Part shown: one piece after another, positions 6,845-53,618 of the stretch
Position numbering within the stretch: the stretch's first letter is position 1
Layout: every line of letters starts with the position of its first letter
DNA from: Patescibacteria group bacterium UBA3466
GTDB lineage: Bacteria; Patescibacteriota; Minisyncoccia; Phycocordibacterales; UBA918
NCBI GenBank assembly: GCA_002378195.1
Contig: DFRJ01000002.1
Span: 22,911 to 86,910 of the forward strand
Direction: 5' to 3'
DNA: 64,000 bases
Made by a program: the position numbers and the translations under genes
Notes under the pieces: model-generated
Database searches by the model: none
What the model was told of the DNA's origin: nothing
Seen by the model: only the letters and a program-made list of their open reading frames with translations

Positions 6845-8935
6845 ATGCCAGCCAAAAAACCTGCTAAAAAAGCCGCCAAGAAGAAGGGTGATTACGACGC
6901 TTCATCTATCTCCGTCCTCGAAGGTCTCGAGCCAGTACGAAAGCGACCGGGAATGTATATTGGTACCACTGGTCCCGATGGTCTCCATCACATGATCTGG
7001 GAGATTTTCGATAACTCTCGTGACGAAGCGATGGGTGGTTTTGCTAATCGGGTAGAAGTGACTTTGCTGCCAGATAACTACATCAGGGTGGTAGATAACG
7101 GGCGAGGAATTCCGGTTGATGTTCACAAGCAGACCAAAGTTTCAGCTCTTGAGACTATTATGACCACCCTGCACGCTGGAGGTAAGTTTGGTGGTGATGA
7201 GTCAGGCTACAAGGTGTCGGGCGGTCTCCATGGAGTAGGTGTATCGGTGGTGAACGCACTGTCTACCCACACTCGAGTAGACGTCCACAAAGATGGTTTT
7301 CAGTACATGCAGGAGTACAACATCGGAAAAGCTAAGGCTAAGGTAAAAAAGCTTGGCAAAACTAAACACAACGGTTCGATTGTAGTATTTCAGGCTGATC
7401 CAGATATTTTCCCCGAAATTAAATTCGACTGGAAGCGCATTGTGTCACATCTAAGACAACAAGCTTACTTGGTAAAAGGTATGCGCATGACGGTAATTGA
7501 TGCTAGAGAAAGTGAAGAAAAGCTCGACCCTAAATCAATCGAATCAAAAATCTATTTAGCTGACGAGCACTTGTCGGTGCCGCATGAGACTTTCTATTTT
7601 GAAGGTGGTCTAAAATCACTAGTATCTTTCAATAACCACTATCAAAAACCGATCAATAAAAATATTTTCTACGTGGAAAAACAGGACGTCAGCCCTGAAG
7701 TTTTGACAGTGGAGGTGGCACTACAGTATGTAGATGATATTTCTCCAAGAATTACTGCTTTTGCCAACAACATCTATAATCCAGAGCACGGTACTCACGT
7801 GACCGGCTTTAAAACGGCTCTCACGCGAACTCTCAATAACTACGCTAAGAAAGGAAACTTTTTCTCAGCTAAAGATAAAGATACTGCCTTTACGGGCGAT
7901 GATGTACTCGAGGGAATTACTGCTGTGATCTCGGTAAAAATGCCAGAAATTCAGTTTGAAGGACAGACTAAGGCTAAGCTCGGATCGGTAGAGGCACGAA
8001 GTGCCACCGAAGCCGTGTTTGGTGATGCGTTTAATACTTTCTTGGAGGAGAATCCAGATGATGCTAAAGCGATCATCAATAAGGTTATTATTGCAGTTAA
8101 GGCCCGTAAGGCAGCTAAGGCAGCAAAAGACAGTGTGCTTAGAAAGGGTGCCCTTGAGGGTATGTCTTTACCTGGTAAGTTGGCCGACTGCCAGAGCCGC
8201 AAGGCAGAAGATTCAGAGATTTTTATCGTAGAGGGGGACTCAGCTGGAGGCTCTGCTAAGATGGGACGAGACCGAAAGACTCAGGCGGTGCTGCCATTAC
8301 GTGGAAAAATCCTAAACGTGGAGCGAGCGCGAATCGATAAGATGCTCGCGTCTGAACAAATCAAGAACTTGGTGATTGCGCTCGGGACCGCCATTGGCGA
8401 TGTGTTTGACGTGTCTAAGTTGCGCTACCACAAAATTATCATTGCGACTGACGCCGACGTCGACGGGGCACACATTCGGACCTTGCTGCTCACACTGTTT
8501 TTCCGTTACTTTCGAGCGTTGATTGATGAGGGTTACGTATACATTGCACAACCGCCACTATATAAAATCCAAAAAGGAAAAGATGTTCGCTACGCCTTTA
8601 CCGACGAGGAAAAGTTCGACATCTTAAAAGATATGGGTGAAGAGGTTAAAGAGGAGGTTGAAGAAAACGAAGACGGTGAGGAGACAGAAGAAGTAGAAGA
8701 TGAAGTTAAGAAGACTAGTCGAGTACGTATTCAACGATACAAGGGTCTAGGTGAAATGAATGCCGAAGAGTTGGCCGAAACTACCATGAATAAGGAGAAT
8801 CGTATCTTGAAACAAGTAACTGTCGAAGATGCGCAGAATGCCGATAAGGTATTTGATATCTTGATGGGAACTGATGTGACTAGTCGAAAGTCGTTCATCC
8901 AATCAAACGCAAAGATGGCCAATCTAGACATCTAA
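6845..8935 (+). CDS. gyrB: DNA gyrase subunit B (type IIA topoisomerase ATPase/Toprim subunit), 696 aa with Lys-rich N-terminus
   Basis: GHKL ATPase motifs (LHHMIWEIFDNSRDEAMGG, GLHGVGVSVVNALS), QTKAKLGS, Toprim EGDSAGGSAK, and PLRGKILNVERA. GyrB vs ParE cannot be resolved from sequence alone. Confidence 0.85.
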   Translation: MPAKKPAKKAAKKKGDYDASSISVLEGLEPVRKRPGMYIGTTGPDGLHHMIWEIFDNSRDEAMGGFANRVEVTLLPDNYIRVVDNGRGIPVDVHKQTKVSALETIMTTLHAGGKFGGDESGYKVSGGLHGVGVSVVNALSTHTRVDVHKDGFQYMQEYNIGKAKAKVKKLGKTKHNGSIVVFQADPDIFPEIKFDWKRIVSHLRQQAYLVKGMRMTVIDARESEEKLDPKSIESKIYLADEHLSVPHETFYFEGGLKSLVSFNNHYQKPINKNIFYVEKQDVSPEVLTVEVALQYVDDISPRITAFANNIYNPEHGTHVTGFKTALTRTLNNYAKKGNFFSAKDKDTAFTGDDVLEGITAVISVKMPEIQFEGQTKAKLGSVEARSATEAVFGDAFNTFLEENPDDAKAIINKVIIAVKARKAAKAAKDSVLRKGALEGMSLPGKLADCQSRKAEDSEIFIVEGDSAGGSAKMGRDRKTQAVLPLRGKILNVERARIDKMLASEQIKNLVIALGTAIGDVFDVSKLRYHKIIIATDADVDGAHIRTLLLTLFFRYFRALIDEGYVYIAQPPLYKIQKGKDVRYAFTDEEKFDILKDMGEEVKEEVEENEDGEETEEVEDEVKKTSRVRIQRYKGLGEMNAEELAETTMNKENRILKQVTVEDAQNADKVFDILMGTDVTSRKSFIQSNAKMANLDI

Positions 8936-8993: not shown

Positions 8994-10016
8994 TTAGTTG
9001 GAAAACAGAACTGTTTCAACAAAGCCATCATTTAGGCTATTTTCATCGGTGTTTTCGTAGGTCATTACTTGGAAGGCGTGTGATCCGGTGTTGGGGGTAG
9101 GGAATCCAACTGTAATCACGGCGCGCTCGCTTGGGCCTAGTGGGTCTTGTCCTCCTGATCGGTAGGTTTCTCCAGAAGGGAGCGTTACAGCGTAAGTCCA
9201 GACATTAGAAGTTTTGAGTCCCAAGTTCTTAACTGCAAACTGAATTGCGCCACTATCTCGTCTTTCAATTTGTCCGGGTACAAACACGTTTGAAATGATG
9301 TTTCCGCTAGCTATAAATTGAGTTGCAAGATCGGTTCGCTTTACCGCATCAATGATTGGAGTCTGGTATTCCGGTTCCTCAACCGATACTGCTGGAGTAG
9401 ATGGCTCTGGGTCAACTGCCACTTCTGGTTCTGGTGTGTCTTCAGTTTGTTCAGATTCTGGCTCAGTCTCCTCATCGTCGTGACTAATAGTACTGTTTAC
9501 TACAGTGTAAGATGAACCGCCTCGTCCATAAGTATGATTATTTTCAGTACCGATCAGTTCGATGTCGTAGTAGATGTTTTCGTAACGATTCTTTTCTGAA
9601 GAGGTTTCCAGGGTTAGATTGGTAGTATTTCCAATATCATAACTAGTGTCGCATGATACTCCGCGGGCGTTACCATTGTTATCAATGATGTTTAGAGAAA
9701 CACCATCAGCACAGTCGTAAGAGAACATGTAGCTACCATCCACGTTGCTAGCATCCCAAGATAGGGAAGTGAATTCTCCAGCTGTAATGATGCTCTTGCT
9801 GCTAGCAATAATAATCTCCTCAGCCTCCATTTCTTCAGTTGGGACAGCTCGCTGGTTGATGCTCTCTGCTAGAGAAGCTAATGAGGAAAAAGCTCCGGGA
9901 ACGAAGCTTACTAGCTGTACAGATAGCCAAGCGATAGCGAAAATCATACTAATAAAAGCTATCACCGCGACTGGCTTAGAGAAGGTGTTGTCCTTCTTGT
10001 TTGATTCGTTACTCAT
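8994..10016 (-). CDS. Membrane-anchored surface protein carrying one Cys-bounded Ig-like repeat of the same family as the six repeats in 11071..13683, plus an acidic Pro/Glu linker
   Basis: N-terminal TM anchor (VAVIAFISMIFAIAWLSV). FTSLSWDASNVDGS...CDTSYD matches the TLSW/TLTW/TLNW repeat signature of the downstream giant protein. Acidic ETEPESEQTEDTPEPE linker. Confidence 0.6.
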   Translation of the reverse strand: MSNESNKKDNTFSKPVAVIAFISMIFAIAWLSVQLVSFVPGAFSSLASLAESINQRAVPTEEMEAEEIIIASSKSIITAGEFTSLSWDASNVDGSYMFSYDCADGVSLNIIDNNGNARGVSCDTSYDIGNTTNLTLETSSEKNRYENIYYDIELIGTENNHTYGRGGSSYTVVNSTISHDDEETEPESEQTEDTPEPEVAVDPEPSTPAVSVEEPEYQTPIIDAVKRTDLATQFIASGNIISNVFVPGQIERRDSGAIQFAVKNLGLKTSNVWTYAVTLPSGETYRSGGQDPLGPSERAVITVGFPTPNTGSHAFQVMTYENTDENSLNDGFVETVLFSN

Positions 10017-10156
10017 AGTTCTTAGAAACTACCACGATTGATGTCTTTTGTCAATATACAATCGGCGGTATTTTGCGTAGTCTTCCTGCATAGAAAAGTC
10101 ATAACATTGACATTATTATTAATCATGTTATTGTATGTGGCGTTTAATTAGTAAAC

Positions 10157-10897
10157 ATGAATAGCTTCGAAAAAATTTGGCAGCAGAAGTATACGTTTCT
10201 CGGAACGTTTTTTATCGTGTTTACTATCTCTTATTTGTTTTTGGTGGCGATTGATTTTCTTCCAGAGGAACCTCAGGCTATTACTGAGGTAGAAGAGGAG
10301 GTGGTCGAGATGGCTGAACCAGAGGAAGTGCCAGAAATGGTAGAGGATGAGGTGATTGAGCCTGATCCAGAGCCTGAAGTGGTTGAGGCAGTGGCTCCAG
10401 TAGCTGTTTCAGCACCTGTTTATACTGCACCAGAGCCAGTGGCGACTATTGATCAATCTGCTTTACCGCTAAAAATTACAATTGAGCGATTAGGTAAGAC
10501 GGTTCAGGTACTTAACCCGAATTCGCGATTAGTGAATGATTTAGATGCTGCTCTCCTTGATGGAGTGGTACGTCACCCAGATTCAGCCAATATGTTACAA
10601 GATGGAAATGTCTTTATTCTTGGCCACTCCAGCCACTTGCCGCGTGTTTTCAATAAAAATTTCCAAGCTTTTAATGGTATCGAGAGCTTGCAGTGGGGAG
10701 ATATTATTAGGGTTTATACCTCAAACGCTGTTTACGATTATCGCGTAGAAAAGGTTTATGAAGCTAAGGCCACCGAGCTGGTGGTGCCAATTGCTGGTAC
10801 TGGAAAGATGCTGACTTTGGCTACTTGCAACAACTTTGGCAGTATCGAAGATCGATTTATCGTGGAGTCAAAGCAGGTGAATGTGACACCTTTTTAA
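10157..10897 (+). CDS. Sortase-family transpeptidase (N-terminal TM anchor, acidic linker, catalytic His...TLxTC Cys)
   Basis: NVFILGHSS (His motif, cf. SrtA IAGHT) and LTLATCN (TLxTC catalytic Cys, cf. LTLITCD), plus a downstream R in the beta7-beta8 region. N-terminal TM segment FFIVFTISYLFLVAIDFL. Confidence 0.75.
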   Translation: MNSFEKIWQQKYTFLGTFFIVFTISYLFLVAIDFLPEEPQAITEVEEEVVEMAEPEEVPEMVEDEVIEPDPEPEVVEAVAPVAVSAPVYTAPEPVATIDQSALPLKITIERLGKTVQVLNPNSRLVNDLDAALLDGVVRHPDSANMLQDGNVFILGHSSHLPRVFNKNFQAFNGIESLQWGDIIRVYTSNAVYDYRVEKVYEAKATELVVPIAGTGKMLTLATCNNFGSIEDRFIVESKQVNVTPF

Positions 10898-11070
10898 GGG
10901 GTGGCTATTGACAAATTAGTATTTATACGATACAATATAAAAATAAGTAGGACTTTGTAGCAGGTCCACGTTCTCTATTAAAATATCGTTATTTCGTAGG
11001 CTTGATTACTCTTGCGTATAAAGGTGTAGGTGAGAGTATAAATCTTATGAATAATACTAAGTTAACAATT

Positions 11071-13683
11071 ATGAAAAAGACATTTAACACAATCGCTCAC
11101 ACGATGGTGATGTTGTCATTGATGCTTTCTGGTTTTGCTACCCCGATTACGGCAACAGCTCAAACTAGTTCAGAAGGAGGATCTCTTTCTACCGGAGGTT
11201 TGACTACCGGAGGATCAGTTTCTATTTCTTGTAGCATTTCAGCCAGTAGCGAAAATATCACTAGTGGCGGCGATGTTGAAATTACCTGGAATACTAGCGG
11301 TGCAGATAACGTCACTATTAATGGTGAGGTCGTTGGTGAGTCTGGTTCTAAGATGTATCTAAACATCACAGAAAATACCTCGTTTAATCTGGTGGCCACA
11401 GTTGATGGTGTGACTTGTGATAAGACGGTTACTGTTTACTGTGAAGCGCCCGAGTCTCCGGTAGGCGACTGTACCCTTACACCAGCTACCCAAACTATCA
11501 CTCGAGGTGAGAGCGCAACTCTAACCTGGACTTCAAACGGTGGTAGCGGAGTGGTATTCGACAATGGTCTTGGAAACCGAACTTCTGATGGTTCGCTTGA
11601 CGTTAACCCAACTGTCACCACCACCTACACCCTAACCGTTGATGAAGGTCTGGTAGTGTCTCCACACGTACCGAAAACTTGTTCAGCTGAGGTTGTAGTG
11701 GTTGATACTGTTGCACCGACTTGTGATTCATTCGTAGCTAGTCCAGATGTGATTAATACTGGAGCAACCACAACTCTAAGTTGGGAGACTACAAATGCCT
11801 CTCAAGTAACTATTAGTGGCGTAGGAACTTTTACTGATGTAGACAGTTCAACCGAGGTGGCACCTTTAGCGTCAACTGTATATACCATGACAGTGTTTGC
11901 AGCTGATGGCCAAACAGACAGCTGTACTACTCCGGTGGTTGTGTCAGAAACTCCGGTTCCAACTTGTGTATTTAATGCTTCACCAAACTCACTGGGTATT
12001 GGTGGGGGAGATGTCACTCTAAACTGGAGTGTAGAGAATGCCTCTGTAGTTGAAATCACCCCATCTGTTGGTGTGGTGTCACAACTAACAGGTTCGCAAG
12101 TGGTTAACGTGTCAGCGTCAACAGATTTCTCTTTGACTGCTACTAATGACGAAGGTGTTCAGGTAAGTTGTCCGGCGCCAGTCACTGTAGCTACTACAGA
12201 CGTACTAACTTGTTCAGATATCACTTTCACTGCTAGTGATTACTCAGTAGATCGAGGCGATAATGTAACTCTAAACTGGGATGCTAGTGCTGCTGATTCA
12301 GTATTTATTAGTGAGATTGACGCAACTGTATTAGTTGGTTCTGAAGCGGTAGAAATTACTGAAGACACTGATTTCGTGTTGACTGCAACTAAAGACGGTA
12401 ATCCGATCAGCTGTCCTATCACTGTCGAAGTCGAAACCGGCGGAGGTGGCGGCGGAGGAGGTTCTGCTTCACCACGTTGTGAACTAGATATTTCAGACTC
12501 ACGAATTTCTCTAGGTGAAGAAATCACTCTAAGTTGGGAAACTTCACGAGCTCGTGACATTACAATTATTGATGACGAAGGTGATGTGTTGTTTACAACC
12601 GACGACATGCTATCTGACGATAAGGAAGACTACCTAGATGGTGAAATTACTATCATTCCAACTCGAGATACTGAATTTACTCTAATTGCTGAACGTGGTT
12701 CACGAGACCGAGAATGTACAGTTGATGTTGAGGTTTCTGGTTCAGTGACTGTACTACAAACCCGAGATCAGCAACCACTAGTAGCTGGTATCTCACTTAG
12801 CCAAACTCCTTACACTGGTTTCGAAGCTGGTCCGTTTATGACAATGATGTTCTACCTACTACTAGTGGCGTGGGCATTGGCTCTAACTTACTTACTGGTC
12901 ATCCGAAACAAGACCGAGGTGGTATTAGAAGGAGGTCAGGTGAATATTACTGAAACTAATACTGATGCCATGACTAAGGCTAAGGAAGTGCGACCTGACG
13001 TGTTTGTGGAGTCAGTAACGCCACAAGTGTCTGGATCAGTAATGCCAACTAATCTACCAACTGGCGCACCAGTAATCGGTACTAATCCGCACGTAGCTGA
13101 TGATGCAACGGTGACTGATATTGAAAACCGTGCCCACGAACAGAATGCGTTATTGTCTAGTGACGCAATCCGACACTTTATTGGTACCACTGAAGGAGGT
13201 CTAGAACGGGTAGCGGCATTAGATGAAGTCATTGCTGCTGCAAAGTCTGAATACGCATTAGAAGATGGTTGGATTGTAATTAATGAGTCTCGAATGAAAG
13301 ATCTTTGTATTGTCTGTCAAAACAATGCAGCAAAGGCAGAAGAAGATCAGGAAGAATTCGTGCTAGCAACAGTTCCGCAAGGTTCTGGATCACTAGCGGA
13401 AGCAATTGTGACCGGGAACGTGGTGGCTGCTTATGACATGATCGGAAACCGACCAATGTTTGCTCTAGCTGATGCTGCAGCTGACCTTGATGCGGTATAC
13501 CGTAGCCGAAAGGGCGATCAGGTAGAGGTCTCAAGTCTTCTTCAAGAAGAAACTAAGAATCTATCAGGTGATCAGATCAAGAATATGATCGCAGCTCTGA
13601 CTGGAGCTATCGATGGTACTTACACCGACGAAGCTTCAGCGGTTAAGATGGCTATCATGAAGGCCGTAAAGGAATTAGGATAA
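11071..13683 (+). CDS. Large cell-surface protein: signal peptide, 6 Cys-bounded Ig-like repeats (~85-90 aa each), Gly8 linker, sorting-signal-like motif + TM + basic stop-transfer, then a ~270-aa cytoplasmic C-terminal domain
   Basis: Start chosen at the internal ATG (MKKTFNT...) giving a classic signal peptide; the ORF-track start at 11002 is upstream. Each repeat starts and ends with Cys and carries a T(L/V)(T/S/N)W.(T/S/V)..(N/S)A signature. GGGGGGGG lies at nt ~12436-12460. LSQTPYTG-FEAGPFMTMMFYLLLVAWALALTYLLV-IRNK sits at aa ~590-630 and the ORF continues for another 270 aa. Confidence 0.7.
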   Translation: MKKTFNTIAHTMVMLSLMLSGFATPITATAQTSSEGGSLSTGGLTTGGSVSISCSISASSENITSGGDVEITWNTSGADNVTINGEVVGESGSKMYLNITENTSFNLVATVDGVTCDKTVTVYCEAPESPVGDCTLTPATQTITRGESATLTWTSNGGSGVVFDNGLGNRTSDGSLDVNPTVTTTYTLTVDEGLVVSPHVPKTCSAEVVVVDTVAPTCDSFVASPDVINTGATTTLSWETTNASQVTISGVGTFTDVDSSTEVAPLASTVYTMTVFAADGQTDSCTTPVVVSETPVPTCVFNASPNSLGIGGGDVTLNWSVENASVVEITPSVGVVSQLTGSQVVNVSASTDFSLTATNDEGVQVSCPAPVTVATTDVLTCSDITFTASDYSVDRGDNVTLNWDASAADSVFISEIDATVLVGSEAVEITEDTDFVLTATKDGNPISCPITVEVETGGGGGGGGSASPRCELDISDSRISLGEEITLSWETSRARDITIIDDEGDVLFTTDDMLSDDKEDYLDGEITIIPTRDTEFTLIAERGSRDRECTVDVEVSGSVTVLQTRDQQPLVAGISLSQTPYTGFEAGPFMTMMFYLLLVAWALALTYLLVIRNKTEVVLEGGQVNITETNTDAMTKAKEVRPDVFVESVTPQVSGSVMPTNLPTGAPVIGTNPHVADDATVTDIENRAHEQNALLSSDAIRHFIGTTEGGLERVAALDEVIAAAKSEYALEDGWIVINESRMKDLCIVCQNNAAKAEEDQEEFVLATVPQGSGSLAEAIVTGNVVAAYDMIGNRPMFALADAAADLDAVYRSRKGDQVEVSSLLQEETKNLSGDQIKNMIAALTGAIDGTYTDEASAVKMAIMKAVKELG

Positions 13684-13751: not shown

Positions 13752-15497
13752 TTATATGTTCTGCTCTTCATTTAGTTTCACAATCAGCTCGTCAAGCGAG
13801 AGTGATTGTGATTCTTCCTGGTCTCTCGACTCAAGAGTAACCTGATTAGCTTCTATGTCTTGGTCGCCAATCACGATGAAGTAGGGAAGCTTGTCCTTTT
13901 TCGCTTGTCTGATCTTCTTACCCATTGATTCTTTGGAGTCGTCAAAGGTGATTCTAAAACCAGCCTCTTCAAGTCTGGTGACTACATTTTGTGCGTACTC
14001 ATTGTGAGCTTCTGCTACAGGAATCACTGCTAGTTGCACGGGCGCGATCAAGAGTGGGAAGTTACCAGCTAGGTGTTCGATTAGTACTGCCGTGAATCTT
14101 TCTAGTGATCCAGCAATGGCTGCATGAATCATCACGATGCGTTCTTTTTCTCCGCTTTCGTTAACACAGGTCAAATCAAACCTTTCGGGCAGGTTACGAT
14201 CGGCCTGAATGGTGGCTACTTGATGTTTGCGTCCAATTGAATCGTGGGCGATGAAGTCTAGTTTGGGAGCATAGAAGGCAGCTTCACCTTCTTCAATGTA
14301 GTATTCGCAGTCACGACTTTCGGCAATTTCTTTCAGGAGGTTTTGCGCGTCATTCCATTCTTCATCAGTACCGATATAGCCGTTAGTATTTTGAGAATCT
14401 CTAAACGAAAGTCGAACCTTTAGATCAAAACCAAAGGTGCCATAGAAAGTGTCGATAATATCCCAGATTGATTCGATCTCCTCACGTAGTTGGGATTCTC
14501 TACAAAATACATGCGCATCGTCCTGAGTGATTGATAACACTCTAGTCAGACCAGCCAGTTCTCCTGATTGCTCAGCCCGATATACCATAGTGGTTTCGGC
14601 AAATCGTTTCGGCATCTCCTTATATGAACGGGGAACTGAATCGAAGATTTGCGTGTGACACGGACAATTCATCGGCTTCAGCACGTACTCCTCGCCGTCG
14701 CTATCTTCTTTAGCGCGTACCTTGAACAAGTCTTCACTGTACTTTTGCCAGTGGCCAGAGGTCTCATACAAAGCTTTCTTGGCAATGTGAGGAATTGTCA
14801 CCATTTCGTAGCCACGTTCTTTTCGTAGTCTTTGGACAAATTTGTCGATCTCTTGTCGTAACACAGTTCCTTTGGGAGACCATAAGGGTAACCCTGGCCC
14901 GACTAAATCAGAAAAGGAGAATAGGCCGAGCTCTTTTCCAAGCTTACGGTGGTCGCGTTTTTTAGCCTCTTCCATTTGAGTTTCGTAGGCTTCCAGCTCT
15001 TCTTTGGTGTCAAAGGCGATACCGTAGATGCGGGTAAGCATAGGATTTTTCTCGTCACCGCGCCAATAAGCACCGGCGATTTTATCGAGCTTGAAAGCAT
15101 CCATGGCAATATCCTGACTCGGATTTTCAGCGTGACCACCGCGACATAGGTCGGTGAAACCACCGCAGGTATATAGTGTGATGGATTCACCTTTCTCAGC
15201 GATTTCATTTATGAGTTCCAGTTTGTATGGATTGTTTTGATACATTTCTCTCGCCTCGTCAGCTGAGACTTCTTTGTGTTCCCATTCTGTCCATTTGTTG
15301 ACCATCTTCTTCATGGCCTTTTGAATAGCTTTCAGGTCAGCATCACCTGGCGCCTCACCATCACCAAAATCAAAGTCATAGTAAAAACCGTTGTCGATCG
15401 GGGGGCCGAGGGTGACTTTGGCTTCTGGGTATTTTTCTAACACTGCTGCCGCCAAGAGGTGGGCGAGAGTGTGTCGTTTCTTTTCTGATTGTTCCAT
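13752..15497 (-). CDS. thrS: Threonine--tRNA ligase, short form lacking the N-terminal TGS domain (581 aa)
   Basis: Second-additional-domain HxxxH-like start (RHTLAHLLAAAV). Class II motifs FRDSQ..., a zinc site (CPCH...) and a C-terminal anticodon-binding domain. Confidence 0.9.
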   Translation of the reverse strand: MEQSEKKRHTLAHLLAAAVLEKYPEAKVTLGPPIDNGFYYDFDFGDGEAPGDADLKAIQKAMKKMVNKWTEWEHKEVSADEAREMYQNNPYKLELINEIAEKGESITLYTCGGFTDLCRGGHAENPSQDIAMDAFKLDKIAGAYWRGDEKNPMLTRIYGIAFDTKEELEAYETQMEEAKKRDHRKLGKELGLFSFSDLVGPGLPLWSPKGTVLRQEIDKFVQRLRKERGYEMVTIPHIAKKALYETSGHWQKYSEDLFKVRAKEDSDGEEYVLKPMNCPCHTQIFDSVPRSYKEMPKRFAETTMVYRAEQSGELAGLTRVLSITQDDAHVFCRESQLREEIESIWDIIDTFYGTFGFDLKVRLSFRDSQNTNGYIGTDEEWNDAQNLLKEIAESRDCEYYIEEGEAAFYAPKLDFIAHDSIGRKHQVATIQADRNLPERFDLTCVNESGEKERIVMIHAAIAGSLERFTAVLIEHLAGNFPLLIAPVQLAVIPVAEAHNEYAQNVVTRLEEAGFRITFDDSKESMGKKIRQAKKDKLPYFIVIGDQDIEANQVTLESRDQEESQSLSLDELIVKLNEEQNI

Positions 15498-16686: not shown

Positions 16687-19600
16687 CTATTCTGGTCGAT
16701 CCGGTGGTGTTTCTAAATCTAGGGTTTGGGGATCAAGAGGTTTAATTTTATCGATCAGAATACTCGGCTCGTCATTGCGGAAATTAAGCTTACCTTTAAT
16801 TGCTACGCAAGTACCAGGCTCAAGTAAGTCTTTATAGGTGGTGTATGTTTCAGGGAAGGTGACAGTTTCTATACTGTCTTTTTGGTCTGATATTTTTACA
16901 AAGGCCATGCGGTCGCCTTTTTTGGTTAGTAGTTCTTTGACTATTTCTACTAGACCCGTGGTAACGACGGTCGTGCCTTTGTAGCCCTGCTTAACTTCGG
17001 CGATTTTAGGGCGTTTATCAGTTTCGGCTTGATGAGCATCAAGCGGATGTCCAGATACATACACTCCAAGTAGCTCTTTTTCCCAGAGTAATTTTTGGGT
17101 AGTGGTTGCTGGCTGTGAGGCTTCGAGAGTGAGACCGCTGACTTCTTCCATTCCGCCAAATAAAGAATCTTGATTGGATTCCTTGCCGGCTACATGCTCT
17201 TTATTGTAAGCCAGTAGGTTGTCTAGATTTGCAAACAAAACTCCTCTTTCGTCGAAGTTATCAAAAGCGCCAGTGGTAATCAGAGCTTCCATTGATTTTT
17301 TGTTTAGCCCACGGTCGTGGATCCGGCTCAAGAAATCCTGCATTGATGCAAAAGCGCCATTTGCTTTTCTTTCCGCAATAATGACATCGGCGATACCAGC
17401 GCCAAAGTTTTTGATAGTAGTGAGTCCAAAGCGGATAGTTTCTTTTCCTGGCACAACTGAAAAGTCAGCGAATGACTCGTTGATATCAGGTGGCAAAACG
17501 GTGATATTCATGCGCTCACACTCGTGAATAATTTCGGAGATTTTTTCTGTGTCACCAGAGTCAGCGGTCAGAACCGCAGACATGTATTCGACTGGATAGT
17601 TGGCCTTCATGAAGGCTGTTTGGTAGGCAACCCGTCCGTATGAGGCGGCATGAGCTTTGTTGAATCCGTAGGCTGCAAAAGGTTCAATTAGTTTCCAGAG
17701 CTCCTCAGCCTTTTGAGCAGTCATGCCATGTTCGATCAGACCGTTGAATAACTTGTCTTTTTCGGCAGCCATGATCTCTGGCACCTTTTTACCCATCGCT
17801 TTACGAAGCTTATCAGCCTCGAGCCACGAATAACCAGCCAGCTTAATGGAGATCATCATCACGTCATCTTGGTAAGTGATCACCCCGTAGGACACGTCAA
17901 GAATTTCTTCCATTCGTTCATCCATGTACGACACTAAAGCTGGATTGTGCTTACGTTCGATATAGGTCGGGATCATTTCCATTGGTCCTGGGCGATACAA
18001 AGCCACCATCGCGTTGATATCGTGAATAGTAGTCGGCTTTAGTTGCTTTAAGAAGGCTGTCATACCCGAACCGTTTAGCTGGAAAAGACCCATGGTTTCA
18101 CCGCGAGCCAACATGTCAAAAGTTTTTTGGTCGGCGAGATCGATATTTTCAATATCAATATCAACGTTGTGAATTTTTTTTACTCGCTTTACGGCATCAG
18201 CTAAGATAGCTAAGTTTTTGATGCCAAGGAAGTCAAACTTCAAAAGGCCGACTCCGTCTTCTCCAACGCTGTGCATTTCGTATTGAGTGATGTACTTTCC
18301 AGTTTTGGGGTCGGGCTGAATTGGTACGTACTCGTTTAGTGGTGCTGGAGCAATCACTACACCGGCGGCGTGCACTCCGAGGTGTCGAACCCGACCTTCA
18401 ATTTGTTTAGCTAGATCAATCACTTCACGGGACTCTGAATCTTTTTTGTACAACTCAGCCAGCTCGGGTTCAATATCGATGGCGCGGTCGATGGTCATTG
18501 GAAAACCTTGAGCCCCAAGCGGTATCAATTTAGCGATGCGGTCACCAGTAGCGTATGAATGTCCCAGAGCGCGAGCTACGTCACGTACAGCCGCGCGGGC
18601 CATCATGGTGCCAAAAGTGCCGATTTGCGCGACGTTATTTTCTCCGTATTTTTCCTTGGAGTATTCGATGATTTCATCGCGTCGGTTATCGGCAAAATCC
18701 ATGTCGATATCAGGCGCTGACGGACGCTCAGGATTGAGGAATCGTTCGAAGGGAAGTTTGTACTCAAGTGGATTTACGTTGGTAATTCCGAGTACGTAGG
18801 TGGTCAGTGATCCGGCTACCGAACCACGAATAGTGGTAAGGATGCCGCGCTCTCGAGCTTCGCGTAAAAGATCGCCTACCACTAAGAAGTATTTGGCGTA
18901 ACCTTTGGTCTTAATGATGTCGAGTTCGTAGTCGAGTCGCTCGGTAACGCTCTTGTCGTTGGTGTCTAGTCCGCGCCATTTCACACCTTCGTACGAGGTG
19001 ACTCGGAGTTCTTCGTCCGGGTCGCGGCCACTTTCAATTTCGTAATTGGGAAATACCCAGGCATCCATACCGAGAGTGATTTCGACATTACAAGCTTCGG
19101 CAATCTTTACTGTATTTGAAATTGCTTCAGGTACGTCTTTAAACCACTCTTTCATCTCCGCTTGAGTGGTAAACGAAAAGTTGTCACTGGCATCATGGTC
19201 AGCGGTGGTGTCTACGACACCACCGCTTTGAATCTTGATCATGGTTTCGCGGGCCAAGCGATCTTCGGGCTTTAGATAATAAATATCGTGAGCGGCTACG
19301 AGGGGAGTATTGGTTTCCTTGGCTAACTCTTTAATCTTTTCTTGATTTTCTTGGTGGTCGAATATTTCTGGGTGGTGCGATATTTCGAGGTAACAATTTT
19401 CGGCAAAGACACTTTTGTACCAATCAAGACGTTCAGCGGCCTGTTCTGGGTTAACGTCTTTTAGCGCTTGAGCTACTTCACCAGCAAAAGAGGGGATAAT
19501 ACAAAATAAATCATCCTTGTACTCTTTCAAAAGCTCTTCATCAATTCGCGGTTTGTAGTAAAAACCTTCGATATTTGAGCGGGTGACGAGCGAGATAAGG

Positions 19601-19920
19601 TTTTGGTAGCCCTTGAAGGTTTTGGCCAGTAAGACTAGGCGGGAGCGGGGTTTATCAATATTAACTTCCTTGTCGTGTCGTGTGCGAGGGGCCAAAAAAG
19701 CATCGAGGCCAATGATTGGTTTGATACCTTCGGCGGTACACGCTTTGTAAAAATCTATTGCACCATAGAGAGCACCAGCATCAGTGATAGCGAGAGCGTC
19801 TTGGCCATCGGCTTTGGCTGTTGCCGCGAGTTCTTTTGGGGTAGGCACAGCATTCAGGAGTGAATACATCGAGTGGGTGTGAAGATGGACGAATTCAGTC
19901 GTAAGCTTCGAATCGGACAT
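16687..19920 (-). CDS. dnaE: DNA polymerase III alpha subunit, compact form (1077 aa)
   Basis: N-terminal PHP domain (HLHTHSMYSLLNAV), polymerase palm/fingers region and C-terminal OB-fold region. Confidence 0.9.
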   Translation of the reverse strand: MSDSKLTTEFVHLHTHSMYSLLNAVPTPKELAATAKADGQDALAITDAGALYGAIDFYKACTAEGIKPIIGLDAFLAPRTRHDKEVNIDKPRSRLVLLAKTFKGYQNLISLVTRSNIEGFYYKPRIDEELLKEYKDDLFCIIPSFAGEVAQALKDVNPEQAAERLDWYKSVFAENCYLEISHHPEIFDHQENQEKIKELAKETNTPLVAAHDIYYLKPEDRLARETMIKIQSGGVVDTTADHDASDNFSFTTQAEMKEWFKDVPEAISNTVKIAEACNVEITLGMDAWVFPNYEIESGRDPDEELRVTSYEGVKWRGLDTNDKSVTERLDYELDIIKTKGYAKYFLVVGDLLREARERGILTTIRGSVAGSLTTYVLGITNVNPLEYKLPFERFLNPERPSAPDIDMDFADNRRDEIIEYSKEKYGENNVAQIGTFGTMMARAAVRDVARALGHSYATGDRIAKLIPLGAQGFPMTIDRAIDIEPELAELYKKDSESREVIDLAKQIEGRVRHLGVHAAGVVIAPAPLNEYVPIQPDPKTGKYITQYEMHSVGEDGVGLLKFDFLGIKNLAILADAVKRVKKIHNVDIDIENIDLADQKTFDMLARGETMGLFQLNGSGMTAFLKQLKPTTIHDINAMVALYRPGPMEMIPTYIERKHNPALVSYMDERMEEILDVSYGVITYQDDVMMISIKLAGYSWLEADKLRKAMGKKVPEIMAAEKDKLFNGLIEHGMTAQKAEELWKLIEPFAAYGFNKAHAASYGRVAYQTAFMKANYPVEYMSAVLTADSGDTEKISEIIHECERMNITVLPPDINESFADFSVVPGKETIRFGLTTIKNFGAGIADVIIAERKANGAFASMQDFLSRIHDRGLNKKSMEALITTGAFDNFDERGVLFANLDNLLAYNKEHVAGKESNQDSLFGGMEEVSGLTLEASQPATTTQKLLWEKELLGVYVSGHPLDAHQAETDKRPKIAEVKQGYKGTTVVTTGLVEIVKELLTKKGDRMAFVKISDQKDSIETVTFPETYTTYKDLLEPGTCVAIKGKLNFRNDEPSILIDKIKPLDPQTLDLETPPDRPE

Positions 19921-51956: not shown

Positions 51957-52730
51957 TTATTCGGTTGTGGTTGGTGTCGGGGTTTCCGTTCCTTCTAGTT
52001 GAGAGATCAAGGTATCGAGAATGTCTTTCACTACAGCGTAAGGTTGAGCTCCGTTGATGACAGCTTGCTGGTCACCAACGATCACAACAGAGTAGGGAGT
52101 GCCTCTTGCACCAATTCGAAAGGCTTCTTCTGCGCTAGCCAAAACCGCCTCCTGGTTTCGTCTTTCGTCAATACAATTGGCAAAATCGAGTTGAGAAATA
52201 CCAGCATCAAGAGCGTATTGTGGAAGGCGAGTTACGTTTGTTGGAGCGTCGAAGGCTCTTTCTTCAAAAAGAGTGTCGGTAAACGTCCAGAAAGCGTCAT
52301 TGCCTCCTAGTTCACCAACGCATAGTGCGGCCTCAGAAATCTTAGCAGCATTTGGGTGTAGTTGAGTGAGAGGGAACTGCCTAAATACCCAACCAACTTG
52401 TCCGTTAACACCGTACTCTTCCATGATGCTGTTCATGGTGCTGTGGTATTCCTTACAGTACGGACACTCATAATCTGAGTATTCTATGATCATGATGGGA
52501 GCGTTCGGATTACCTTTGATGTAGTCTGTCTCATCTATGGTGCGAGGAGTACCGCTTTCAATGATCACTTCTTCATCTGCTTCGACTACTGTTACTGTTT
52601 CTGTTGGCTCATTACTGCTAGTAAAGAATATAGCGACAGCGATCATCGCAAAACCAACAATAATAGCGATAGGAATAGCCGGAGAGGTTTTGGTGGCGTC
52701 GGTTTGTTGTGTTTCAAAAGAAGGTTCCAT
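51957..52730 (-). CDS. DsbA-like thiol:disulfide oxidoreductase, membrane-anchored
   Basis: N-terminal TM anchor followed by a thioredoxin-fold domain with CPYC active site (YECPYCKEY). Confidence 0.7.
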   Translation of the reverse strand: MEPSFETQQTDATKTSPAIPIAIIVGFAMIAVAIFFTSSNEPTETVTVVEADEEVIIESGTPRTIDETDYIKGNPNAPIMIIEYSDYECPYCKEYHSTMNSIMEEYGVNGQVGWVFRQFPLTQLHPNAAKISEAALCVGELGGNDAFWTFTDTLFEERAFDAPTNVTRLPQYALDAGISQLDFANCIDERRNQEAVLASAEEAFRIGARGTPYSVVIVGDQQAVINGAQPYAVVKDILDTLISQLEGTETPTPTTTE

Positions 52731-52805: not shown

Positions 52806-53618
52806 ATGGAATGGCTAGATGCAGTTATATTAGGTTTGGTGCAAGGAGTGACAGAGTTTTTGCCAGTGTCTTCAACTGGGCACTTAGTTTTGGTTCATGA
52901 ATGGTTGATGTTAGACCAAACCAACGCGCTGGCGTTTGACGCCATTTTACACTTTGCAACCACGGCCGCAGTCATCGTTTACTTTTGGTCAGACATTTGG
53001 AATTTGCTACAAGCAGTTTTGCGAAAGCTGGGTAGGTTGCCGGTCAATCAGAAAGACATAACTTTATTTAATGCCCTGGTGGTAGGTACGATCCCGGCGG
53101 TAGTGATTGGTTTGGCTTTACAGGGTCTGGTTCAGGAGCATTTGCGCAACTCACTCTTTGTGGCGGGCGCATTATTTTTTGCTTCGATGTTTTTCTTGTA
53201 TGTAGAATGGCGGTATTATCTGCAACCTCCGCACGGCGAAATAAACATCAAGCGTGGTTTTTGGGTCGGTGTATTTCAAGCGTTGGCTTTGATTCCGGGT
53301 ATGTCACGTTCCGGATCCACTATCGCTGGAGGTATGCTACTTGGTATGACCAGACTCGAAGCTACTCGCTTTTCTTTTTTGTTGGCTATTCCGATTACCT
53401 TAGGGGTTGGTATCAAGATGAGTATCGATCTCCTAGACGCTGACGGTGTCGTCAATTGGTCAGTTATTTGGCTAGGTGCAGCAGTGGCTTTTTTGACTGC
53501 CTTGCTCGTTATTCACTTTTTCTTACGGTTCATCCGGAAGTACACGCTGTGGCCATTTGTGTGGTATGGCATCATTTTGGCCAGCATGGTGGCTTACGTA
53601 TCCGTTTTTACTATTTAA
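52806..53618 (+). CDS. uppP: Undecaprenyl-diphosphate phosphatase
   Basis: LGLVQGVTEFLPVSSTGHL N-terminal motif and PGMSRSGSTI second motif. Confidence 0.85.
   Translation: MEWLDAVILGLVQGVTEFLPVSSTGHLVLVHEWLMLDQTNALAFDAILHFATTAAVIVYFWSDIWNLLQAVLRKLGRLPVNQKDITLFNALVVGTIPAVVIGLALQGLVQEHLRNSLFVAGALFFASMFFLYVEWRYYLQPPHGEINIKRGFWVGVFQALALIPGMSRSGSTIAGGMLLGMTRLEATRFSFLLAIPITLGVGIKMSIDLLDADGVVNWSVIWLGAAVAFLTALLVIHFFLRFIRKYTLWPFVWYGIILASMVAYVSVFTI

What the first reader, a model, noticed from the sequence alone, without database searches (positions are those of the whole stretch)
8994..13683. Sortase-centred surface-protein locus built from a private Cys-bounded Ig-like repeat family
Three adjacent genes share one theme. 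The protein at 8994-10016 is membrane-anchored and carries one TLSW-type, Cys-bounded ~90-aa repeat. Next comes a sortase-family transpeptidase with His and TLxTC motifs. Then an ~870-aa protein carries six copies of the same repeat, each framed by Cys. A membrane-anchored DsbA-like CPYC oxidoreductase at 51957-52730 could make the disulfides. The repeats are diverged at the amino-acid level, so they are not a recent nucleotide duplication. The repeat signature (C...T(L/V)(T/S/N)W..(T/S)..(N/S)A...C) does not obviously match a named adhesin domain. An anchored/divergent single-repeat paralog plus a multi-repeat display protein plus a dedicated sortase looks like a compact adhesion or host-attachment module.
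Basis: partly seen in the sequence, partly recalled or inferred. Interest (0 to 1): 0.7.

Follow-up and report, generated by a model that had tools for sequence, protein, structure and literature searches.

The report
Dedicated sortase and its tailed surface protein
This is a three-gene cell-surface module conserved across a whole lineage of ultrasmall Patescibacteria: a sortase sits next to one large protein made of disulfide-stapled Ig-like repeats, and that protein's sortase signal lies in the middle of the chain, followed by a strongly conserved cytoplasmic domain rather than by the end of the protein.

Summary
The three genes are real. A (8994-10016, minus strand) is membrane-anchored and has two beta-sandwich domains. 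The sortase (10157-10897) has His157, Cys224 and Arg233 intact. C (11047-13683) has a signal peptide and six diverged Ig-like repeats, each with exactly two Cys.

The repeat family is not private. The order gyrB, A, sortase, C, thrS recurs in 69 of about 70 species-level Paceibacteria genomes and in 28 of 28 metagenome contigs long enough to show it.

After the repeats, C carries ISLSQ-TPYTG-FEAGP, a transmembrane helix and RNK. That is a tripartite sortase sorting signal. A 255-residue cytoplasmic tail follows, and it is as conserved as the sortase itself.

Relatives show the tail is an add-on. Some lineages lack it or have half of it. In about 15 loci the tail lies in the -1 frame behind an A9 tract (A7 in one), so the unshifted product ends shortly after the sorting signal, in one clade as a canonical C-terminal signal.

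Best reading: a dedicated sortase-substrate pair. Cleavage at TPYT|G would anchor the Ig stalk to the wall and leave the tail in the membrane. Cleavage, an adhesion role and the tail's function are all untested. I class it as a new variant of a known kind.

The parts
8994..10016 (-). Gene A, 340 aa. N-terminal TM anchor (aa 15-41, nt 9894-9974). Beta-sandwich domain 1 (aa 62-165, nt 9522-9833) with conserved W87, C102 and C122. Acidic, Pro-rich linker (nt 9354-9521). C-terminal CARDB/DUF1573-like domain (aa 222-340, nt 8997-9353).
   Evidence: ORF. Weak CARDB/DUF1573 hits. Family conservation in 61 orthologs. A lies divergently upstream of the sortase in nearly all related loci. Only a local 24-column match to the C repeat.
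10157..10897 (+). Sortase, 246 aa. TM anchor (nt 10193-10264). Acidic, Pro-rich linker. Catalytic domain (nt 10454-10894) with His157 (10625-10627), Cys224 in TLATC (10826-10828) and Arg233 (10853-10855).
   Evidence: PF04203 E 4e-18. No class-level NCBIfam model reaches its cut-off; the best is class E at 36 bits against 160. Closest solved structure is 4d70_A ('sortase family protein'), E 7e-6; from memory this is a Clostridium perfringens class D sortase. The catalytic triad is at least 95% conserved in 69 orthologs.
10908..10936 (+). Sigma-70-like promoter match (TTGACA-17-TACAAT, 11 of 12) between the sortase stop and the start of gene C. A second match lies at 10107-10134, upstream of the sortase.
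   Evidence: This is a consensus match only. The number of promoter-like sites in the region is not above the shuffled expectation.
11047..13683 (+). Gene C, 878 aa as called in public assemblies. Alternative starts are TTG 11002 and ATG 11071. Residue numbers in this report count from 11002.
   Evidence: P0001 is 100% identical and 878 aa.
11071..11163 (+). Sec-type signal peptide, MKKTF...ATPITATAQ.
   Evidence: Read directly from the sequence. Homologs have equivalent hydrophobic N-termini.
11215..12738 (+). Six Ig-like repeats: R1 11215-11439, R2 11455-11703, R3 11707-11946, R4 11950-12192, R5 12196-12435, a Gly8 hinge at 12439-12462, and R6 12463-12738. Each repeat has one Cys on the first strand and one on the last.
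   Evidence: In a 121-copy alignment the two Cys are the only invariant columns. The AF2 model has pLDDT 97.7. The nearest solved folds are generic Ig, SoxYZ, FN3 and PKD sandwiches, all with E above 1e-3.
12796..12915 (+). Embedded sorting signal. LSQ-TPYTG (motif at nt 12805-12819), then FEAGP, a TM helix (to about nt 12906), then the basic residues R-N-K.
   Evidence: P, T, G, F, A and G are invariant in 25 diverse homologs. In the window, this is the only real ORF with such a signal.
12916..13107 (+). Cytoplasmic linker predicted to be disordered, carrying a conserved P.NLPTG.P.IGY motif (NLPTG at nt 13051-13065).
   Evidence: AF2 pLDDT is about 46-60 here. Motif conservation.
13108..13680 (+). 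Folded cytoplasmic tail domain of about 190 aa, mostly helical with two short strands. It holds a CxxC at C769/C772 (nt 13306-13317).
51957..52730 (-). Membrane-anchored DsbA-like thiol oxidoreductase with a CPYC motif. It is a candidate oxidase for the repeat disulfides but is not part of the cluster.

Best explanation
A, the sortase and C form a lineage-wide, dedicated sortase-substrate module of the Paceibacteria cell envelope.

**Proposed mechanism** (every step is inferred):
1. C is exported through Sec.
2. Its six Ig-like repeats fold outside the cell. Each is stapled by a first-strand to last-strand disulfide, probably made by a DsbA-like oxidase.
3. The TM helix stops transfer. This leaves TPYTG about five residues outside the membrane and the tail in the cytoplasm.
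4. The neighbouring membrane-anchored sortase (Cys224, His157, Arg233) cleaves between Thr605 and Gly606.
5. The sortase transfers the Ig-repeat stalk to an envelope nucleophile, most likely the peptidoglycan precursor.
6. The fragment GFEAGP-TM-linker-tail stays behind as a membrane-tethered cytoplasmic protein.

**The tail.** It is an accessory module that most lineages, including this one, have fused to the sorting signal. Its role is unknown. My guess is that it couples or doses export and anchoring of the surface protein to a cytoplasmic partner.

**Gene A.** It is a co-conserved, membrane-anchored extracellular partner of unknown role.

**What is shown:** the domain anatomy, conservation, synteny, and the natural variants lacking the tail.
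**What is inferred:** cleavage, wall anchoring, the disulfides, and the functions of the tail and of A.
For: **Synteny**
- The sortase lies immediately upstream of C on the same strand in 69 of about 70 species-level genome loci that reach far enough upstream.
- The same holds in 28 of 28 independent metagenome loci.
- The cluster always sits between gyrB and thrS.

**Sorting signal**
- All listed homologs but one (119 of 120) carry I[SA]L..[VT]P[YH]TGFEAGP, a hydrophobic helix and basic residues.
- P, T and G are invariant.
- The signal plus TM (67.5%), the tail (63.8%) and the sortase catalytic domain (62.4%) are about equally conserved. The ectodomain is less so, at 40-56%.

**Active enzyme**
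- The catalytic His, Cys and Arg are at least 95% conserved.

**Natural variants**
- In L074/L075 the ORF ends '...VPYTGFEAGP-TM-IKKKVS*'. That is a canonical C-terminal sorting signal.
- L100/L122/L165 lack the tail entirely and run straight into thrS, yet keep the sortase and A.
- 16 metagenome loci keep only the first tail subdomain.

**One signal, one family**
- A scan for back-translated PYTGFEAGP returned 120 loci. All except two truncated ones have C-type repeats upstream.
- No other sorting-signal ORF occurs in the window or in the roughly 1.3 Mb of the 80 genome loci.

**Fold and disulfides**
- The repeat is an Ig-like fold, and 488 of 489 copies have exactly two Cys.
- A DsbA-like oxidase is encoded in the window.

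**Surface-protein behaviour**
- Repeat number varies from 2 to 11 between species.
- A co-occurring strain with an identical sortase has one extra near-identical repeat.
Against: - There is no biochemical evidence of cleavage.
- By definition a sorting signal ends the protein. Here 255 residues follow it, and they are strongly conserved. That would also fit an uncleaved transmembrane receptor.
- Curated sorting-signal models do not recognise the segment, even when it is isolated.
- Conservation extends past TG into FEAGP, which is unusual for LPXTG signals.
- The sortase reaches no class-level cut-off, so its specificity cannot be read from family membership.
- No whole genome was available to count sortases and substrates, so 'dedicated' rests on adjacency only.
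- The acceptor nucleophile in these organisms is unknown.
- A's role is unexplained.
Confidence: 0.6

Rival explanations
1. C is an uncleaved type I transmembrane receptor or adhesin. The Ig-repeat ectodomain and the cytoplasmic tail work as one chain for outside-in coupling. The PYTGFEAGP segment is a conserved juxtamembrane element, possibly a docking site for the sortase-like protein, and not a scissile site.
For: The tail is fused in 80 of 106 complete metagenome loci and in most genome loci. It is as conserved as the sortase. Lineages with the A9 interruption keep the tail frame open and conserved, so the ability to make the fusion has been retained. Conservation extends beyond TG. Sorting-signal HMMs do not match.
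Against: P-x-T-G is invariant at the canonical distance from a TM helix followed by basic residues. An intact sortase active site lies next door in every genome examined. Tail-less and half-tail lineages, and 0-frame products that end as canonical signals, keep the sortase and A. So the ectodomain plus signal functions without the tail.
Confidence: 0.2
2. The locus is a sortase-assembled fibre or pilus. The adjacent sortase joins C subunits head-to-tail, or joins C to A, through an isopeptide bond, as class C sortases do in Gram-positive pilus islands.
For: A sortase encoded next to its substrate is typical of pilus islands. C is a chain of Ig-like domains like pilins. CPR cells are reported to carry pili-like appendages (PMC8672522, read).
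Against: No conserved Lys was found in the first, N-terminal repeat across the 120 homologs. There is only one signal-bearing protein per locus. The class C sortase model scores 17 bits, below classes E and D and far below its cut-off of 160. A has no sorting signal.
Confidence: 0.12
3. This is an ordinary housekeeping sortase with many substrates elsewhere in the genome, and it merely happens to lie beside a large surface protein. The three genes are neighbours only by conserved synteny.
For: The cluster sits in a block of housekeeping genes (pheT, gyrB, thrS, dnaE) whose order is conserved anyway. No whole-genome census was possible.
Against: The sortase-C adjacency survives insertions of other genes and loss or recoding of the tail. 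The signal PYTGFEAGP was found only in C-family proteins among 120 metagenome hits. The signal and the enzyme are conserved to the same degree.
Confidence: 0.08

Closest known systems
Gram-positive LPXTG surface proteins anchored by housekeeping sortases. [quoted passage not shown] LPYTG itself appears in a paper on Streptococcus agalactiae beta antigen (PMC4457541); from memory it is that protein's sorting motif.
   Same: N-terminal signal peptide, a stalk of Ig-like repeats, an xPxTG motif a few residues before a TM helix and basic residues, and a membrane-anchored Cys/His/Arg sortase.
   Different: The signal is internal, with about 255 conserved cytoplasmic residues after it. The first motif position is V or T, not L. 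FEAGP after TG is invariant. Each repeat has a Cys pair. The sortase fits no curated class. The host is a Patescibacterium.
Dedicated sorting systems in Haft's sense, meaning one sorting enzyme paired with a single adjacent target. An example is the Gram-negative class GN sortase (TIGR03784) with its neighbouring LPXTG target (PMC3237569; the pds system in PMC11580497).
   Same: The enzyme and its one recognisable target are encoded side by side, and the pairing is conserved across many species.
   Different: The sortase subfamily differs: TIGR03784 scores 16.5 bits against a cut-off of 158. The target family differs too, being Ig repeats rather than vWFA. There is no associated two-component system or OmpA-like gene. 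'Single target per genome' was not verified here.
Sortase C pilus islands of Gram-positive bacteria.
   Same: The sortase gene is embedded among genes for Ig-fold surface proteins.
   Different: There is only one signal-bearing protein. No conserved pilin-type Lys was found. The class C HMM is not met.
Sensing of the membrane-retained C-peptide left by sortase A in Streptococcus gordonii (described in PMC11326707).
   Same: The fragment left in the membrane after sortase cleavage has a function of its own.
   Different: There the remnant is only the short sorting signal, read by a separate histidine kinase. Here the remnant would carry its own folded domain of about 190 aa. No kinase is involved and no function is shown.
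Two-length-variant genes made by slippage at A/T runs: dnaX tau/gamma, and Citrobacter rodentium tssM (PMC5009743; PMC4256274, abstract).
   Same: In relatives of this locus, though not in the window, an A9 run separates a short 0-frame product from a long product in the -1 frame. RNA polymerase slippage is reported to be efficient at runs of 9 A or T.
   Different: The gene differs. Here the short form would be a near-canonical sortase substrate and the long form would be the tail-fused one. Slippage has not been demonstrated.

Membership tests
Sortase superfamily (Pfam PF04203) | Catalytic-domain HMM score above the gathering cut-off | tested here: met
   65.8 bits against 26.6, E 4e-18, covering aa 107-240.
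Sortase superfamily (Pfam PF04203) | Conserved catalytic His, the Cys of TLxTC, and Arg | tested here: met
   H157, C224 (TLATC) and R233 are each at least 95% conserved in 69 orthologs.
Sortase superfamily (Pfam PF04203) | Transpeptidase activity on its motif | not testable with these tools
   This needs biochemistry.
Sortase classes A-F and GN (NCBIfam class models) | Score above a class-specific cut-off | tested here: not met
   Class E 36 against 160, class D 28.7 against 165, class C 17.2 against 160, class GN 16.5 against 158. The enzyme remains unclassified and sits nearest classes D and E.
LPXTG-type cell-wall sorting signal | An xPxTG motif just outside a hydrophobic helix that is followed by basic residues | tested here: met
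   TPYTG-FEAGP-TM-RNK. P, T and G are invariant in homologs.
LPXTG-type cell-wall sorting signal | Located at the extreme C-terminus of the protein | tested here: not met
   In the window, 255 residues follow the basic cluster. The feature is met in the natural variants L074, L075, L113, L133 and L167.
LPXTG-type cell-wall sorting signal | Recognition by curated models such as TIGR01167 or PF00746 | tested here: not met
   No family matched at E up to 10 for the isolated signal of the window or of L074.
Dedicated sortase system (one enzyme, one adjacent target) | Enzyme and target genes adjacent across species | tested here: met
   69 of about 70 genome loci and 28 of 28 metagenome loci.
Dedicated sortase system (one enzyme, one adjacent target) | Only one target and one sortase per genome | not tested
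   No complete genome could be read. Only the 64-kb window and flanks of about 10 kb were scanned.
DUF11 / TIGR01451 repeat proteins (the public annotation of homologs) | A PF01345 domain hit | tested here: not met
   The window protein has no DUF11 hit. Homologs carry DUF11 as an extra inserted domain, for example P0021 at aa 186-305.
Ig-like beta-sandwich fold | A seven-strand sandwich resembling solved Ig, FN3 or PKD domains | tested here: met
   AF2 pLDDT 97.7 with 7 strands. Foldseek gives TM-scores up to 0.78 to SoxYZ, Ig, FN3 and PKD domains, but E is at least 2.4e-3, so the match is at fold level only.
Sortase-assembled pilin | A conserved nucleophile Lys (pilin motif) in the N-terminal domain | tested here: not met
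   No Lys reaches 50% conservation in the first repeat across the 120 homologs.
DsbA-like thiol oxidoreductase (the gene at 51957-52730) | Thioredoxin/DSBA HMM above cut-off, a CxxC motif and extracytoplasmic anchoring | tested here: met
   PF13462 73.8 against 23.2, PF01323 46.4 against 25.6, a CPYC motif and an N-terminal TM helix. Its action on C is inferred.
Clamp-loader / AAA+ lid-type domain (the tail) | Sequence or fold homology, with or without ATPase motifs | tested here: inconclusive

The most novel reading that the evidence does not exclude
C is a bipartite precursor, and the sortase acts as its maturation enzyme. One cut would send a wall-bound Ig-repeat stalk outward and leave a membrane-tethered folded cytoplasmic domain inside. 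The two are normally made 1:1 because they are one chain. In several lineages an A9 slippage site re-tunes the ratio to mostly short substrate and little tail-fused form. In others the tail is halved or lost. The tail would couple surface-protein export and anchoring to a cytoplasmic process. This would be the first sortase substrate whose post-cleavage remnant is a functional domain, and a new recoding case in Patescibacteria.
Probability: 0.3. Interest if true: 0.85.

Novelty: new variant of a known kind. Interest (0 to 1): 0.62.

Why it matters
Patescibacteria make up a large share of bacterial diversity, and their envelope and attachment machinery is almost unknown.

This module is conserved in every relative of this Paceibacteria lineage that could be examined, at one fixed chromosomal position. 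It is therefore probably a major structural surface component, not an accessory adhesin.

Sorting signals are defined as C-terminal. An internal one followed by a conserved cytoplasmic domain would extend what sortases are thought to do. It also offers a simple test system: one enzyme, one substrate, one motif.

The A9 tract variants in relatives are a natural experiment. They separate the substrate from the tail and are candidates for programmed slippage.

Public annotation gives no hint of any of this. Homologs are labelled 'DUF11 domain-containing protein' or 'hypothetical'.

Tried and rejected
- **Family searches on C and its parts.** Pfam and NCBIfam searches on the whole protein, on 121 single repeats, on the isolated sorting signal and on the tail gave nothing above threshold.
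- **PDB sequence searches with tail profiles.** Nothing relevant was found.
- **AlphaFold-database fold search for the tail.** The library was not available.
- **A as a single-repeat paralog of C.** Rejected. Profile-profile similarity covers only 24 columns, and the Cys positions differ.
- **Recent DNA-level repeat expansion in the window.** Tandem Repeats Finder found none.
- **Pilin-type conserved Lys in the first repeat.** Absent.
- **Co-loss of all three genes in L084 as a test of linkage.** Rejected. tblastn shows all three genes are present but fragmented.
- **A stimulatory RNA structure downstream of the A9 runs, which would favour ribosomal -1 frameshifting.** There is no consistent signal; z-scores run from +1.5 to -2.15.
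- **Literature searches.** I searched for sortase in Patescibacteria, for VPYTG/PYTG, and for Parcubacteria with LPXTG. None turned up a description of this family. The library is limited to open-access papers, so prior work cannot be excluded.
- **Remote homology of the tail to clamp-loader subunits.** Both fold tools suggest it, but no sequence evidence supports it. It remains an open lead.

Full report
**1. What is in the window**

The stated interval holds three ORFs.
- A: 8994-10016, minus strand, 340 aa.
- A 246-aa ORF at 10157-10897, plus strand.
- A long plus-strand ORF ending at 13683. Its mechanical start is TTG 11002. Public gene calls use ATG 11047 and give 878 aa.

The flanking genes are housekeeping: pheT and gyrB upstream, thrS and dnaE downstream. 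Exact copies of the sortase lie on Tara Oceans and other marine contigs and in the assembly GCA_002320355.1. Homologs are labelled Candidatus Paceibacteria, Parcubacteria, Nomurabacteria or Kaiserbacteria. The window therefore comes from a marine member of the Patescibacteria.

**2. The sortase**

- Pfam PF04203 matches at E 4e-18.
- The protein has an N-terminal TM helix, an acidic and Pro-rich linker, and a catalytic domain with His157, Cys224 (TLATC) and Arg233.
- All three residues are at least 95% conserved in 69 orthologs.
- No class-level NCBIfam model comes near its cut-off. The best is class E at 36 bits against 160.
- The closest solved structure by sequence is 4d70_A, deposited as 'sortase family protein', at E 7e-6. 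From memory this is a Clostridium perfringens class D sortase.

It is a genuine sortase, probably active, of an uncatalogued subfamily.

**3. The repeats of protein C**

- Six repeats of 75-92 aa are 24-47% identical to each other. Each has one Cys near its start and one near its end.
- There is no DNA-level tandem repeat.
- An HMM built from the six copies finds 2-11 copies in every one of 120 homologs. Of 489 full-length copies, 488 have exactly two Cys.
- In an alignment of 121 diverse copies, the two Cys are the only invariant columns. One Gly and one Trp are nearly invariant.
- AlphaFold2 on that alignment gives a seven-strand beta sandwich at pLDDT 97.7. One Cys lies on the first strand and the other on the last.
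- The nearest solved folds are generic SoxYZ, Ig, FN3 and PKD sandwiches, none with E below 1e-3.
- Single repeats give only sub-threshold Pfam hits to PKD/Ig families.

The description 'Ig-like, Cys-framed, no named family' is right. I could not measure the Cys-Cys distance in the model, so the disulfide remains an inference.

**4.

After the sixth repeat comes ...AGISLSQ-TPYTG-FEAGP, then a 25-residue hydrophobic helix, then R-N-K, then 255 more residues. The motif, the helix and the basic cluster make up the tripartite architecture of a sortase sorting signal (PMC4617865 abstract; PMC3237569).

- All listed homologs but one (119 of 120) carry it as I[SA]L..[VT]P[YH]TGFEAGP-TM-basic, followed by 280-310 residues in nearly all of them.
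- In 25 diverse sequences, P, T, G, F, A and G are invariant.

With an N-terminal signal peptide and basic residues after the helix, the tail must be cytoplasmic. This is inferred from the positive-inside rule.

AlphaFold2 models the tail in three parts:
- a TM helix;
- a low-confidence linker carrying a conserved P.NLPTG.P.IGY motif;
- a confident, mostly helical domain of about 190 residues.

A profile search of 1.84 billion representative proteins finds the domain in only 495 clusters. In all 150 listed it lies at the C-terminus.

**5. Protein A**

A has four parts:
- an N-terminal TM anchor;
- a beta-rich domain with conserved W87, C102 and C122;
- an acidic linker;
- a conserved C-terminal domain with weak CARDB/DUF1573 similarity.

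Its likeness to the C repeat is confined to about 24 columns around 'GEFTSLSW'. Its Cys residues are internal. It is not a single-repeat paralog of C.

**6. Conservation and synteny**

I searched one genome per species with the signal-plus-tail alignment.
- 152 relatives were found and 80 loci were kept.
- The order gyrB(+), A(-), sortase(+), C(+), thrS(-) recurs throughout.
- The sortase was found in 68 loci by phmmer and in one more (L084) by tblastn.
- The 11 loci without a sortase all end within about 1.4 kb upstream of gene C.

A second, independent sample came from a metagenome scan for back-translated PYTGFEAGP.
- 28 of 28 loci with more than 5.5 kb upstream of the motif had the sortase.
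- 26 of those 28 had A.

Median identity to the window proteins across 50 loci:

| Part | Median identity |
|---|---|
| C signal + TM | 67.5% |
| C tail | 63.8% |
| Sortase catalytic domain | 62.4% |
| C repeat 6 | 56% |
| C repeat 1 | 40% |
| A | 39% |

The module is an old core cluster, not a private or accessory one. The cytoplasmic and juxtamembrane parts of C are constrained as tightly as the enzyme.

The ectodomain behaves like an exposed surface protein.
- Copy number varies between species.
- A co-occurring strain with an identical sortase has a near-exact extra copy of repeat 2, giving 965 aa instead of 878.

**7. Natural variants that separate substrate from tail**

State of the gene downstream of the motif, in the 106 metagenome loci complete on that side:

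| State | Loci |
|---|---|
| Full tail fused | 80 |
| First tail subdomain only | 16 |
| Tail in another frame | 6 |
| No tail (gene ends about 35 residues after the helix) | 4 |

- In three tail-less loci with downstream sequence, thrS follows directly.
- Sortase and A persist in the three tail-less loci and four of the five half-tail loci checked; the fifth has too little upstream sequence.
- Ten genome loci are split in the same way as the six metagenome ones.

Details of the split cases:
- In 15 of the 16, the tail is in the -1 frame, never the +1 frame. The stretch where both frames are open holds an A9 run (A7 in L083). The exception is L073.
- In L078, L079 and L087, a stop codon in the -1 frame directly precedes the run. 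The run is therefore the only possible switch point.
- Runs of 9 or more A or T are very rare in these loci: 18 in 1.33 Mb. Ten of the 18 lie 95-295 nt downstream of the PYTG codons of gene C.
- In L074/L075 the 0-frame product ends '...VPYTGFEAGP-TM-IKKKVS*', which is a canonical C-terminal sorting signal. The DNA reads ATA AAA AAA AAG GTT TCT TAG, and the tail continues in the -1 frame.
- The short 0-frame peptide after the run is itself conserved across species (KKKV..L.AKY...W). It is also the C-terminus of the tail-less lineage. Both products therefore look selected.
- In L087 the conserved linker motif ANLPVG is encoded in the -1 frame upstream of the called ATG of the tail ORF.

Bacterial RNA polymerase is reported to slip efficiently at runs of 9 A or T (PMC5009743). 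I found no consistent downstream RNA structure. Transcriptional slippage is therefore at least as likely as ribosomal -1 frameshifting. Neither has been shown.

The window gene itself has no such run and is an uninterrupted fusion.

**8. Interpretation**

The invariant core is A, the sortase, and a protein built as signal peptide, Ig repeats, xPYTG, TM helix and basic residues. The simplest mechanism is that of Gram-positive surface proteins.
1. The protein is exported.
2. It is retained in the membrane by the stop-transfer helix.
3. The sortase cleaves between Thr and Gly.
4. The ectodomain is transferred to the wall precursor.

Here that would leave GFEAGP-TM-linker-tail in the membrane. Two things support a one-enzyme, one-substrate system in Haft's sense (PMC3237569):
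- the conserved adjacency;
- the finding that the PYTGFEAGP signal occurs only in C-family proteins among 120 metagenome hits.

A whole-genome census was not possible. I give this reading a confidence of 0.6.

The main rival (0.2) is that C is an uncleaved receptor. The strong conservation of the fused tail is the best argument for it. The tail-less and canonical-ended variants argue against it. Pilus-type polymerisation (0.12) lacks a conserved nucleophile Lys. Coincidental adjacency (0.08) is hard to reconcile with section 6.

The DsbA-like oxidoreductase at 51957-52730 is real. It is a sensible general oxidase for 6 extracellular Cys pairs, but it is not linked to the cluster.

**9. Novelty**

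Each component belongs to a known kind: a sortase, an Ig-repeat surface protein and a tripartite signal. The unusual points are these:
- an internal sorting signal followed by a conserved folded cytoplasmic domain;
- lineage-wide one-to-one synteny in Patescibacteria;
- an uncatalogued signal variant ([VT]PYTGFEAGP) and sortase subfamily;
- in relatives, an A9-linked -1 frame junction between substrate and tail.

My searches of open-access literature found no description of any of these. I class the finding as a new variant of a known kind.

Noticed in passing
Related loci, not the window: L074 10114-10122, L075 10114-10122, L076 10175-10183, L078 4122-4130, L079 1355-1363, L081 1454-1462, L085 10196-10204, L087 5852-5860. 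Also L094, L113, L123, L133, L167 and L206.: In about 15 loci an A9 run (A7 in L083) sits exactly where the tail switches to the -1 frame relative to the sorting-signal ORF. The shift is never +1. Such runs are otherwise very rare (18 in 1.33 Mb, 10 of them in this 200-nt stretch). The short 0-frame peptide after the run is conserved too. This is a candidate programmed transcriptional slippage or -1 frameshift that would give a short (canonical substrate) isoform and a long (tail-fused) isoform.
   Followed up: partly
L100, L122, L165 and L184 (tail-less). L090, L103, L112, L129, L134, L140, L145 and others (half tail).: Some lineages lack the cytoplasmic tail entirely, so that gene C ends about 35 aa after the TM helix; in three loci with downstream sequence thrS follows directly. 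Others keep only the first tail subdomain. Sortase and A are retained in the three tail-less and four half-tail loci with enough upstream sequence.
   Followed up: partly
L005 2113-5010 and L006 2107-5004, compared with window 11455-11703.: Co-occurring marine strains with an identical sortase carry a 965-aa version of C with a near-exact extra copy of repeat 2. This is population-level variation in repeat number.
   Followed up: yes
Examples: L064 7336-7848, L072 6466-6981, L047 7078-8146, L087 3476-3853.: In roughly 20 more divergent species, one to three small genes for secreted or lipoprotein-like Cys-rich proteins are inserted between the sortase and gene C. At least two recurring families are recognisable from shared C-terminal motifs. 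They are absent from the window.
   Followed up: no
window 13051-13065: A second sortase-like motif, NLPTG, sits within a conserved P.NLPTG.P.IGY stretch in the disordered linker predicted to be cytoplasmic, about 50 aa after the TM helix. An extracellular sortase should not be able to reach it. Its meaning is unknown.
   Followed up: partly
window 11440-11442 and 13306-13317: The ectodomain has an odd 13th Cys (C147) in the linker between repeats 1 and 2, with no obvious partner. The cytoplasmic tail has a CxxC (C769/C772) that is conserved in many but not all homologs.
   Followed up: no
window 6845-8935 (gyrB), 13752-15497 (thrS, minus strand), 16687-19920 (dnaE, minus strand): In all lineages examined the module is wedged between gyrB and thrS, and dnaE lies nearby in the window and in L087, L122 and L165. 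The tail's best fold matches are clamp-loader subunits. This is probably coincidence, but I record it.
   Followed up: partly
window 11215-12738 (repeat consensus): The repeat consensus TLxWxTxNA(S/T)xVxI contains a recurrent N-A-S/T sequon. Whether it marks glycosylation or is only structural was not examined. A family 2 glycosyltransferase gene lies a few genes upstream on the same contigs (L001 686-2242).
   Followed up: no
window 52806-53618: A 270-aa polytopic membrane-protein ORF lies next to the DsbA-like oxidoreductase. From its sequence I take it to be an undecaprenyl-diphosphatase (UppP), which would make this a small pairing of envelope-biogenesis genes. No family search was run on it.
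   Followed up: no
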